Of a stretch of DNA of 34,957 nt, positions 27,606-30,640 are shown in pieces. The notes beneath the pieces were generated by a model. That model saw only the letters and a program-made list of their open reading frames with translations, was not told the origin of the DNA and did no database searches. The position numbers and the translations under genes are program-made. How positions within the stretch are numbered: position 1 is the stretch's first letter; the number at the start of each line of letters is the position of its first letter. Origin of the DNA: Spirochaetaceae bacterium (GTDB taxonomy: Bacteria > Spirochaetota > Spirochaetia > Treponematales > Breznakiellaceae); NCBI GenBank assembly GCA_031279285.1, contig JAITIR010000119.1, positions 1-34,957 of the forward strand, written 5' to 3'.

Positions 27606-28020
27606 CAGTTCCTTATCATTTCAGGCGGTTTATGACCCGTGGGAAGGGCGGAGTGAGGTGCGAGTCGCTGCTGCTCTGCTTTGGCTATAATCTGTCCGTG
27701 CCGGGGAACAGACCGGACAAAACAGCGGATAGGGAGGGAAAGCAACCTGACAGCCGCAGAAATGAACCGTAAACATGGAAAACTGTCCGCCTGAACCTTC
27801 AAAAAACAGCCCTTATTGCACTTCGTTTACAGCCCTTTTTGCTGCGTGGAGGCTCATTGACATTCGCGCACGTTTTAAACGGAACAGTATCTATGAAACC
27901 CGCCGGCGGACGCCGATAATTAAGCATGGGGAGTTTGCGCGCTCGCCTCCGCAAGCAAGCCCGGATAGGTTTGTACGCAGGGTGTAAATTGAAGCCGGAA
28001 GGCGGAATGGGGAGGATGTT

Positions 28021-29619
28021 TTGAAGACAGAATACAGCGCCGCCGCGATACTTTTTGCCGGAGAACTACATGACGAGGCGTTTAAAAAGTGTTTTGGCGG
28101 CAAAAGCGCCTTTGAGTTGGCGTTAAAACGGGCGGCTGCGTTTCCTCACGTTGTAAAAATAACTGTACTCGTGTCAAGCGATTTTGATACTACGCTGATG
28201 CCATGCGGCATTGAACGCATGGAATTTGTGCAAAAAGAGGCGTGGAACGTCAAAACTTTTTTGTATGAGCTTGCCCGCGCCGGCGAGGGTTTTGACCTGA
28301 GTTATTTTTGCTGGGCAGACACCCCTTTCCTTGACGGCGGCCTTGCGGAGGCCATTGCCGGGCGGCATCTGCGTGGCGCTGCGGAGTATTCCTATGCAGA
28401 CGGCTGGCCGGACGGTCTCGCGCCTGAAATTCTATCTCCCGGGACGGCGGGGATTCTTGCCCGGATAAACGGCGAAAACGAGGCGCCGGTGGAACGGGAC
28501 ACGATTTTCGCCGTTTTGCAGAAGGACATTAACACGTTTGACATCGAAACCGAGATTTCGGCAGTTGACTTGAGGCAACACCGGCTGAACCTCGCGGCCT
28601 GCTCGAAACGCAACCTGTTGCTACTTGAGCGTTTTTGGGAGGCGGGCGTAGCCGGCGCTATGAGCATGGCTGACACCGCCGGACAACTCATCATCAAGCA
28701 GCCCGAACTGCTCCGCAGCCTGCCGGCATTCTACCCGATTCAGGTTGTATCCGCCTGTCCCCAGCGCTGTCCTGTCTGCCCCTATCCAAAGTCGGATCAC
28801 TTTGCTTTCTTTGACCCCTTTCATAGGGAGGAGGGGCCTGTAGAAGATGATTTTTCGATCATGAAGCTTGAGGATTTTTCAACTTTACTCGATAGAATCG
28901 TGGATTTTTCAGGCGACGCCGTGGTAGACCTGTCGTTATGGGGAGAAATCGCGCTCCACCCGCAAAGAATTGAGCTTGTAAGGGAGGTTTTACGGCGTCC
29001 GGACCTGTCTCTTGTGATAGAAACTTCCGGGATTGGCTGGGAAATAACGGATTTTCAAACGCTTGCCGGTGAAGCGGCAACGGCCGTGCCGCGAAAGAGC
29101 GGCATGGCAGCGCTTTCGTGGATAGTTTCACTCGATTCGAACGATGAGGCGGAATACCGCGCCGTACGTGGTGACGGTTTTGGCGCGGCGCTTGAAAACG
29201 CCCACACCATCGTTTCGCTTTTTCCGAAAGACGCCTACGTACAGGCCCTGCGGATGAAGGGGAACGAGGCGTACATAGAAAAGTTTTACCGGTTTTGGAA
29301 GGGCGAGGGGGCCAACGTGATAATCCAGAAGTACGATTCGTTTTGTGGCTCCTTGCCGGACCGTTCCGCCGCCGACCTTTCTCCGATAAAACGCTATCCC
29401 TGCTGGCACCTGATGCGCGATATGCCGATCCTGCTGGACGGAAGCGTCCCCGTCTGCCGTTCGGCCCTGCCGGGCATAACCGCCGTGCTTGGCAACGCGT
29501 TTGGAGAGGGCCTGGACGCAATTTGGCAGCGCGGGGAGGAACGCTACGAGCGACACTGCGCTCAAAACTACGATGGCCCTTGCTCAAAGTGTGATGAATA
29601 CTATACCTTCAACTTTTAA
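28021..29619 (+). CDS. Fusion protein: N-terminal cytidylyltransferase-like nucleotidyltransferase domain (SpsF/NeuA/IspD-type), then a radical-SAM domain (CX3CX2C), then a C-terminal SPASM/twitch-like Cys cluster
   Basis: TTG start at 28021, with GGAGG 5 nt upstream (the in-frame-shifted ATG at 28016 hits TGA after 2 codons). Residues 1-200: AAAILFAGE...FCWADTPFLDGGL...YADGWPDGLAPEIL, nucleotidyltransferase-like. C246-x3-C250-x2-C253 (ACPQRCPVCPY). C-terminus: C-x14-G-x4-C ... C-x7-C-x2-C. Confidence 0.7.
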   Translation: MKTEYSAAAILFAGELHDEAFKKCFGGKSAFELALKRAAAFPHVVKITVLVSSDFDTTLMPCGIERMEFVQKEAWNVKTFLYELARAGEGFDLSYFCWADTPFLDGGLAEAIAGRHLRGAAEYSYADGWPDGLAPEILSPGTAGILARINGENEAPVERDTIFAVLQKDINTFDIETEISAVDLRQHRLNLAACSKRNLLLLERFWEAGVAGAMSMADTAGQLIIKQPELLRSLPAFYPIQVVSACPQRCPVCPYPKSDHFAFFDPFHREEGPVEDDFSIMKLEDFSTLLDRIVDFSGDAVVDLSLWGEIALHPQRIELVREVLRRPDLSLVIETSGIGWEITDFQTLAGEAATAVPRKSGMAALSWIVSLDSNDEAEYRAVRGDGFGAALENAHTIVSLFPKDAYVQALRMKGNEAYIEKFYRFWKGEGANVIIQKYDSFCGSLPDRSAADLSPIKRYPCWHLMRDMPILLDGSVPVCRSALPGITAVLGNAFGEGLDAIWQRGEERYERHCAQNYDGPCSKCDEYYTFNF

Positions 29620-30640
29620 CCGCGATTTTCCCACCTACACCGTGATCGGCGGCTCCAGGCGGAACGCTTCTACGGGGATTTGTGCCGTTTTGCTGAGCCG
29701 GGGCGACCGCTATACCAGAAGCGCCTGTTTCAGGGAGCTTGAAAACAGCGGTTTTGACTATGTTCTGTCGATGGAAAGCGGCGACCATTTCGATATTGAG
29801 GAATTGAACAGCGCTTTTCCGTTTGTCAGGTTTGTTCTGTTCAAGGATGCTCCAAGCATAGGCAGTCAGATAAATGTCGCGGCCGGCGAGGCGGACACAC
29901 CGTTCTTTTTTGTGCTGTGGAGCGATTTCCATCCAATTCTGACCCTCAACGCCGAGCGTATAGCCGAACGCTTGTTGATAAAACCGAATGGCACACCAAA
30001 AAGCTCGTACGGCAGGCTCTGTACAACGCCGACCATACAAAACCCGCGGTTTGAGGTGCTTCCAACCATGTACGCGCCGGTGATAAACGGCAAAAAGTTT
30101 GAGACCCTGCCGTTTGCACCGTTAAAGGAGGCCTCGCCGACCTTGTATCCTTTCGACGCTGCCGGCGTTTACGACAGGAAACGTTTTATTAACCTGGGCG
30201 GTTTTGATCCCCAACTGAATTCGCGGCACTGGCAGCTTTTGGATTTTGGCCTGCGCGCCTGGCTCTGGGGCGAGGAAATACGCTGCACCCAACAGGTACG
30301 TTTTAGCCTTGATGGTGAGCCACATGCGGAAAACATCACTGCCGACGAAAGTTATCTCCGGTTTTTCCTGAAAAACCTTGCCCCCGTGATTCGCCCCGAA
30401 GCGGTGGAGACCTCCGCCAAAGACGACGGCGGCGCCGTAAGCAAGCGCCGCTCCGCAGGCGGCGAGGCCCGCTTGCCGCTCCGCCGCTTCATACCCTACC
30501 TGCTCAAAGCCGGCTGCAGCCCCGTAAGGGCTGCCTGTTACTTTTCAGAAATCCGCCGTTGGGTAGACGCAAACAGCCGCTGCTTTGTGAACGATGTAAA
30601 CGGAATCACGGCATTTTGGGGCCTGCCACCATCCGTTTAA
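29594..30640 (+). CDS. GT-A fold / family-2-like glycosyltransferase (tentative)
   Basis: ATG 29594 overlaps the upstream stop (29617-29619) by 26 nt, indicating translational coupling. Motif RFINLGGFDPQLNSRHWQLLDFGLRAWLWGEEI resembles the GT2 'GGFDE...ED.DL.lR...G' region. The start is uncertain. Confidence 0.5.
   Translation: MNTIPSTFNRDFPTYTVIGGSRRNASTGICAVLLSRGDRYTRSACFRELENSGFDYVLSMESGDHFDIEELNSAFPFVRFVLFKDAPSIGSQINVAAGEADTPFFFVLWSDFHPILTLNAERIAERLLIKPNGTPKSSYGRLCTTPTIQNPRFEVLPTMYAPVINGKKFETLPFAPLKEASPTLYPFDAAGVYDRKRFINLGGFDPQLNSRHWQLLDFGLRAWLWGEEIRCTQQVRFSLDGEPHAENITADESYLRFFLKNLAPVIRPEAVETSAKDDGGAVSKRRSAGGEARLPLRRFIPYLLKAGCSPVRAACYFSEIRRWVDANSRCFVNDVNGITAFWGLPPSV

What the first reader, a model, noticed from the sequence alone, without database searches (positions are those of the whole stretch)
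28021..30640. Two-gene operon: cytidylyltransferase-like / radical-SAM / SPASM fusion protein, translationally coupled to a GT-A-like glycosyltransferase
In the 532-aa protein, the first ~200 residues look like an SpsF/NeuA/IspD-type cytidylyltransferase. The central region carries a canonical CX3CX2C radical-SAM motif (C246/C250/C253). The C-terminus has a C-x14-G-x4-C ... C-x7-C-x2-C cluster of the SPASM/twitch type. I do not recognise this domain combination from any characterised enzyme family. The next ORF overlaps its stop by 26 nt and carries a GT2-like GGFD...D.G.R region. The pair could be a nucleotide-sugar activation, radical modification and transfer module, which is inference. Alternatively, SPASM enzymes often modify peptides. 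The 580-bp upstream intergenic region is unusually long and structured, and it contains a 70-aa Cys-bearing ORF (27775-27987) that I cannot evaluate. Expression signals are non-standard: a TTG start with a GGAGG Shine-Dalgarno sequence.
Basis: partly seen in the sequence, partly recalled or inferred. Interest (0 to 1): 0.75.

Follow-up and report, generated by a model that had tools for sequence, protein, structure and literature searches.

The report
Spirochaete spiro-SPASM enzyme with glycosyltransferase-like partner
The two genes are real and are an ordinary member of a catalogued but never-studied spirochaete protein family ("spiro-SPASM"), always paired with a sugar-transferase-like partner; the pair probably alters and passes on a sugar, but nobody has tested this.

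Summary
ORF1 (28021-29619, TTG start, 532 aa) is one protein with three domains. The first is a nucleotidyltransferase fold, the second a radical-SAM core with C246/C250/C253, and the third a C-terminal Fe-S domain. ORF2 (29594-30640, 348 aa) overlaps ORF1 by 26 nt and is predicted to have a GT-A glycosyltransferase fold.

The fusion is not unknown. It scores 558 bits against NCBIfam TIGR04321 "spiro-SPASM protein", and this contig is already annotated that way. I found no paper on the family.

What the analysis adds:
- The N-domain is a paralogue of the SpsF/KdsB-like cytidylyltransferase that most spirochaetes encode two genes downstream. It lacks that enzyme's conserved NTP-phosphate loop.
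- The radical-SAM and Fe-S part is closest to BtrN, a sugar-type "twitch" dehydrogenase, not to peptide maturases.
- About half of the family has lost the radical-SAM cysteines, in roughly 20 separate events, while everything else stays conserved.
- The 26-nt overlap is present in 82 of 85 loci.
- Elsewhere the pair heads a conserved eight-gene cluster that ends in flaA. This window lacks the other six genes.

The 70-aa upstream ORF is not conserved. Function is inferred only: a sugar-modifying and sugar-transferring pair.

The parts
27893..27920 (+). Promoter-like site (ATGAAA, 16 nt, GATAAT) upstream of ORF1
   Evidence: Found by the consensus scan. The GATAAT block lies in the only upstream stretch conserved with relative L001. 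Its function is inferred.
28011..28015 (+). GGAGG Shine-Dalgarno sequence, 5 nt before the TTG start
   Evidence: Read from the sequence. It is identical in L001.
28021..29619 (+). ORF1: spiro-SPASM protein, 532 aa (TIGR04321)
   Evidence: NCBIfam 558 bits against a cutoff of 250. 100% identical to NCBI protein P0001. The AF2 model has pLDDT 90.6 and pTM 0.90.
28021..28716 (+). N-terminal nucleotidyltransferase-fold domain (aa 1 to about 232), a paralogue of SpsF/KdsB-like cytidylyltransferases without their NTP-phosphate loop
28717..29340 (+). Radical-SAM core (aa about 233-440)
28756..28779 (+). CX3CX2C motif (C246, C250, C253)
   Evidence: Invariant in close relatives. Intact in only 69-71 of 143 family representatives.
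29341..29619 (+). C-terminal twitch/SPASM-type Fe-S domain with C461, C479, C521 and C524
   Evidence: Pfam SPASM covers aa 461-525 at 23.8 bits, above its cutoff. The four cysteines are kept in 140-141 of 143 representatives, C442 in 81 and C513 in 16. The domain aligns to the BtrN twitch stretch.
29594..29619 (+). 26-nt out-of-frame overlap: ORF1 ...CDEYYTFNF* and ORF2 MNTIPSTF...
   Evidence: Read from the sequence. The same 26-nt overlap occurs in 82 of 85 loci, with an almost invariant nucleotide sequence.
29594..30640 (+). ORF2: 348-aa GT-A-fold protein, glycosyltransferase-like, with no Pfam or NCBIfam family
27775..27987 (+). 70-aa ORF: probably not a gene, and not part of the system
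   Evidence: No tblastn match in 80 related loci. It is partly deleted in L001 and has no family hit.

Best explanation
**Identity**
ORF1 and ORF2 are an ordinary member of the spirochaete-restricted "spiro-SPASM" gene pair.

**ORF1**
- It is a BtrN-like radical-SAM enzyme of the one-auxiliary-cluster ("twitch") type.
- Its N-terminus is a catalytically degenerate copy of an SpsF/KdsB-type cytidylyltransferase.

**Proposed mechanism (inferred)**
1. The N-domain no longer makes a CMP-sugar. It binds a sugar or nucleotide-linked acidic sugar.
2. In members with the intact CX3CX2C site, such as this one, reductive cleavage of SAM gives a 5'-deoxyadenosyl radical.
3. That radical abstracts a hydrogen from the bound sugar.
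4. The fully Cys-ligated auxiliary [4Fe-4S] cluster takes the electron, giving an oxidation (dehydrogenation) or a follow-on rearrangement, as in BtrN.
5. The product goes to the GT-A-fold partner. The partner is made from the same mRNA through a 26-nt overlap, probably forms a complex with ORF1, and transfers the sugar to an unknown acceptor.

**Context**
- In most spirochaetes the rest of the pathway follows directly: a true cytidylyltransferase, a PseG-like/methyltransferase fusion and an ATP-grasp ligase. Then come an amidase, a GerM-like protein and flaA.
- In this genome those genes are not in the window.

**Shown:** folds, homologies, motifs, gene order and the overlap.
**Inferred:** substrate, reaction, complex formation and acceptor.
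For: **Family membership**
- TIGR04321 at 558 bits.
- Every source name seen among the hits is a spirochaete.

**Folds and closest relatives**
- The N-domain is homologous to the cluster's own CTP_transf_3 family (hhalign 95.5%, E 1.5e-8, 188 columns). That family's closest solved relative is also 6oew (E 3.5e-31).
- Four C-terminal cysteines are near-universal. This matches the definition of a one-cluster twitch domain and the four-Cys auxiliary cluster of BtrN (PMC9012708).

**ORF2**
- GT2-like GGFD and D-x-G-x-R motifs are invariant.

**Linkage of the pair**
- The pair is adjacent in 77 of 80 loci.
- The 26-nt overlap is present in 82 of 85 loci, down to about 36-40% protein identity.

**Neighbourhood**
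- Conserved cluster: spiroSPASM, GT-A, CTP_transf_3, PseG-like+methyltransferase, ATP-grasp, Amidase_3, GerM, FlaA.
- In L139, CTP_transf_3 is fused to the methyltransferase protein.
Against: - About half of 143 family representatives lack the CX3CX2C cysteines, with at least about 21 changes on a neighbour-joining tree. They are just as conserved in all three domains. The family's core function therefore cannot require radical-SAM chemistry.
- The window has none of the downstream pathway genes (tblastn found nothing).
- ORF2 has only a single invariant Asp (W-N/S-D111-L/F) where GT-A enzymes usually have DxD. It matches no glycosyltransferase HMM.
- Whether the N-domain binds a ligand has not been tested.
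- No experiment exists on any family member; searches for "spiro-SPASM" and "TIGR04321" returned no papers.
- The link to flaA may be mere adjacency. In T. denticola, flaA's operon starts with a different gene. In B. burgdorferi, the amidase operon is described as a cell-division operon.
Confidence: 0.4

Rival explanations
1. The conserved job of spiro-SPASM proteins does not depend on radical-SAM chemistry. The protein would mainly be an Fe-S-containing, ligand-binding partner (scaffold, chaperone or regulator) of the GT-A-fold enzyme. The radical-SAM site, where still present as here, would be accessory or vestigial.
For: - 72-74 of 143 representatives lack the cysteine triad. The Fitch minimum is 21 changes and the root state is "present".
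- Cys-less members keep the same mean conservation in all three domains.
- Only C246, C250, C253, W307 and S370 are specific to the Cys-containing group.
- The Cys-less member P0273 sits in the full, unchanged eight-gene cluster.
- The exact 26-nt overlap suggests tight co-production with ORF2.
Against: - In this protein and all its close relatives the triad is invariant.
- The root state is inferred as present.
- Barrel residues E334, D372, Q408, R411 and K437 are conserved in both groups, so an active pocket is maintained.
- Recurrent loss could also reflect a change of chemistry rather than a passive role.
Confidence: 0.3
2. ORF1 would be bifunctional: an active cytidylyltransferase that makes a CMP/CDP-sugar, plus a radical-SAM modifier. 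ORF2 would then transfer the product.
For: - The nucleotidyltransferase fold is real.
- The GD-x-P-type Asp (D100) and a G-x-P-x-G...E sugar-site-like block are conserved.
- Some homologues score weakly on PF12804.
Against: - The invariant Q7/R9/S12/R14/K18 loop of the neighbouring true cytidylyltransferase aligns to a non-conserved stretch in ORF1. G14 is kept in only 39 of 143 representatives.
- This protein has no Pfam or NCBIfam nucleotidyltransferase hit.
- Most genomes encode a separate intact CTP_transf_3 enzyme two genes downstream.
Confidence: 0.1
3. ORF1 would be a peptide or protein maturase, like most SPASM enzymes. It would act on a small precursor such as the upstream 70-aa Cys-bearing ORF, or on a protein such as a flagellar component.
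For: - Pfam SPASM matches.
- flaA lies in the wider cluster in other genomes.
Against: - The 70-aa ORF is not conserved: 0 of 80 loci, and partly deleted in L001.
- No conserved small ORF accompanies the pair.
- Only one auxiliary-cluster set of cysteines is conserved.
- By sequence the closest solved relative is BtrN, far ahead of SkfB (E 0.0035) and PqqE (E 0.09).
- The N-terminal domain is a nucleotidyltransferase fold, not a peptide-recognition (RRE) domain.
Confidence: 0.05

Closest known systems
NCBIfam/TIGRFAMs TIGR04321 "spiro-SPASM protein" (a bioinformatic family with no characterised member)
   Same: The match is full length (aa 8-532 against model positions 2-510 of 510) at 558 bits against a cutoff of 250. 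The same name is already on this record in NCBI.
   Different: Nothing differs; this protein is a member. The family name says nothing about function, and I found no paper on it.
BtrN (2-deoxy-scyllo-inosamine dehydrogenase, a twitch-domain radical-SAM enzyme; PDB 4m7t/4m7s)
   Same: - It is the best solved relative by sequence (E 1.4e-12), aligning in both the core (CX3CX2C, GE motif) and the twitch stretch (C479, and C521-x2-C524 aligned to BtrN's C...CxxC).
- It has one four-Cys auxiliary cluster (PMC9012708).
   Different: - BtrN is a 250-aa stand-alone enzyme without an N-terminal nucleotidyltransferase-fold domain or an obligate GT-A partner.
- Sequence identity is low.
- The spiro-SPASM substrate is unknown, and half of the spiro-SPASM family lacks the radical-SAM cluster site.
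SpsF/KdsB-type cytidylyltransferases (Pfam CTP_transf_3; PDB 6oew from Leptospira borgpetersenii)
   Different: The NTP-phosphate loop (Q-A-R-x-x-S-x-R-L-P-G-K) is not conserved. This protein also reaches no Pfam or NCBIfam threshold for these families.
GT-A glycosyltransferases (GT27 polypeptide GalNAc-transferases; GT2 enzymes such as SpsA, K4CP, GlfT2)
   Different: ORF2 matches no HMM of any glycosyltransferase family. It has a single Asp instead of DxD/DxH. An extra C-terminal helical region is present, and no lectin domain.
Pse/Leg-type nonulosonic-acid gene sets (PseF cytidylyltransferase, PseG hydrolase, tailoring methyltransferase and ATP-grasp enzymes)
   Same: The conserved downstream genes in other spirochaetes include a CTP_transf_3 enzyme, a PseG-like domain (TIGR03590, E 1e-16, below cutoff), a SAM methyltransferase and an ATP-grasp ligase. 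The T. denticola flagellin glycan is a methoxy-acyl nonulosonic acid (PMC13439194).
   Different: No NeuB/PseI, PseB or PseC genes were seen next to the pair. The cytidylyltransferase scores closer to KdsB than to PseF. None of these genes is in this window. T. denticola has a Maf-type flagellin transferase (bioRxiv 10.1101/2023.12.03.569772).

Membership tests
TIGR04321 spiro-SPASM protein | Full-length HMM score above the curated cutoff (250 bits) | tested here: met
   558.1 bits, E 1.8e-167, aa 8-532 against model positions 2-510 of 510.
TIGR04321 spiro-SPASM protein | Restricted to spirochaetes | tested here: met
   Every named hit is from Spirochaetota: Treponema, Breznakiella, Leadbettera, Salinispira, Spirochaeta and unnamed Spirochaetia MAGs. 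In the genome collection, 553 candidate stretches encode a relative.
Radical SAM superfamily (PF04055) | CX3CX2C motif binding the SAM-cleaving [4Fe-4S] cluster | tested here: met
   C246/C250/C253 are present and invariant in close relatives. Family-wide they are present in only about half.
Radical SAM superfamily (PF04055) | Pfam gathering score | tested here: not met
Radical SAM superfamily (PF04055) | Reductive cleavage of SAM | not testable with these tools
   This needs anaerobic biochemistry.
SPASM domain (two auxiliary clusters; seven-Cys motif CX9-15GX4C, gap, CX2CX5CX3C, gap, C; motif recalled from memory) | Pfam PF13186 gathering score | tested here: met
   23.8 bits against a cutoff of 21.5, aa 461-525.
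SPASM domain (two auxiliary clusters; seven-Cys motif CX9-15GX4C, gap, CX2CX5CX3C, gap, C; motif recalled from memory) | Enough conserved cysteines for two auxiliary clusters | tested here: not met
   Only C461, C479, C521 and C524 are near-universal. C442 is kept in 81 of 143 and C513 in 16 of 143. The chain ends 8 residues after C524.
Twitch-domain radical-SAM enzymes (BtrN-like) | Truncated SPASM domain with one auxiliary cluster ligated by conserved cysteines | tested here: met
   Four conserved cysteines. C479 and C521-x2-C524 align to the corresponding BtrN cysteines. The definition of the domain is taken from PMC9012708. Cluster binding itself was not tested.
Twitch-domain radical-SAM enzymes (BtrN-like) | Two-electron oxidation of a sugar or cyclitol hydroxyl | not testable with these tools
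   Inference from the closest relative only.
CTP_transf_3 / NTP_transf_3 nucleotidyltransferases | Rossmann-like nucleotidyltransferase fold | tested here: met
CTP_transf_3 / NTP_transf_3 nucleotidyltransferases | N-terminal NTP-phosphate-binding loop (R/K-rich; Q-A-R-x-x-S-x-R-L-P-G-K in the neighbouring family) | tested here: not met
   The invariant Q7, R9, S12, R14 and K18 of alignment A7 align to the non-conserved stretch "LFAGELHDEAFKK". G14 is kept in 39 of 143.
CTP_transf_3 / NTP_transf_3 nucleotidyltransferases | Pfam or NCBIfam HMM match | tested here: not met
   No hit for aa 1-240 even at E 10.
GT-A glycosyltransferases (ORF2) | GT-A fold | tested here: met
GT-A glycosyltransferases (ORF2) | DxD (or DxH) metal/nucleotide-sugar motif after beta-4 | tested here: inconclusive
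   Only D111 is invariant, in W-(N/S/D)-D-(L/F/I). The assignment is by position in the predicted strand order, not by residue-level superposition.
GT-A glycosyltransferases (ORF2) | Membership of a CAZy/Pfam glycosyltransferase family by sequence | tested here: not met
   None of 35 members hits any glycosyltransferase Pfam family. No PDB sequence hit.
RiPP maturase systems (radical-SAM/SPASM enzyme plus precursor peptide) | Conserved adjacent precursor peptide gene | tested here: not met
   The 70-aa ORF is absent from 80 related loci. No small conserved ORF cluster lies next to the pair.

The most novel reading that the evidence does not exclude
The spiro-SPASM/GT-A pair would be a spirochaete-specific machine for building or transferring an unusual acidic-sugar glycan of the periplasm, for example the acylated, methylated nonulosonic acid on periplasmic-flagellum proteins or a cell-wall glycoconjugate.
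- A BtrN-like radical oxidation would act on a sugar held by a "dead" cytidylyltransferase domain.
- Many lineages would have repeatedly turned the radical-SAM site off, leaving a pseudo-radical-SAM Fe-S protein that still works with its partner.
Probability: 0.15. Interest if true: 0.8.

Novelty: new member of a known kind. Interest (0 to 1): 0.5.

Why it matters
**For this window**
The result is mostly a correction. The "unrecognised fusion" is a catalogued family and is already annotated as such on this record.

**For the family**
It is worth attention for four reasons.
- It is found across the spirochaetes: at least 436 representative clusters at 50% identity score E <= 1e-30.
- It has never been studied.
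- It is locked to a GT-A-fold partner by an ancient 26-nt overlap.
- It usually leads a cluster that runs into the flagellar sheath gene flaA.

Two features would interest enzymologists. One is a radical-SAM enzyme fused to a degenerate cytidylyltransferase paralogue. The other is the repeated loss of the radical-SAM cluster site while the auxiliary cluster and everything else are retained. If the pair makes a spirochaete-specific glycan, it would be a phylum-specific target in a group that includes the syphilis, Lyme disease and leptospirosis agents. Whether those pathogens carry the pair was not established here.

Tried and rejected
1. **The 70-aa upstream ORF as a precursor peptide.** Rejected: no conservation and no family hit.
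2. **A riboswitch or structured leader in the 581-bp intergenic region.** Rejected.
   - No Rfam match at gathering score or at E <= 1.
   - Fold z-scores are -0.65 and -1.57.
   - Only about 60 nt around a GATAAT box, plus the Shine-Dalgarno/TTG region, are conserved with L001.
3. **Wrong start codon or separate ORFs.** Rejected: one uninterrupted ORF, the same start as NCBI, and homologues align over aa 1-532.
4. **Looking for the cluster's other genes in this window.** None found by tblastn.
5. **Linking the family to T. denticola's flaA operon through published primer sequences.**
   - The one metagenome scan gave 54 mostly random hits.
   - One oral-Treponema-like contig (L133) shows the TDE1716-like first gene is a 125-aa glyoxalase-like protein, not spiro-SPASM.
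   - So that operon differs, and the detour did not locate a T. denticola orthologue.
6. **Model-organism orthologues (T. pallidum, Borrelia, Leptospira).** Could not be established.
7. **Kurniyati et al. 2017 and Yang & Li 2009.** Neither paper is held in the library.
8. **Informative fusions in longer family members (P0378, P0386, P0253).** No extra domains recognised.
9. **Relation to the Brachyspira virulence-plasmid radical-SAM gene.** No spirochaete plasmid hit.
10. **Sequence-level detection of a glycosyltransferase family for ORF2.** Nothing. Only structure prediction shows the GT-A fold.

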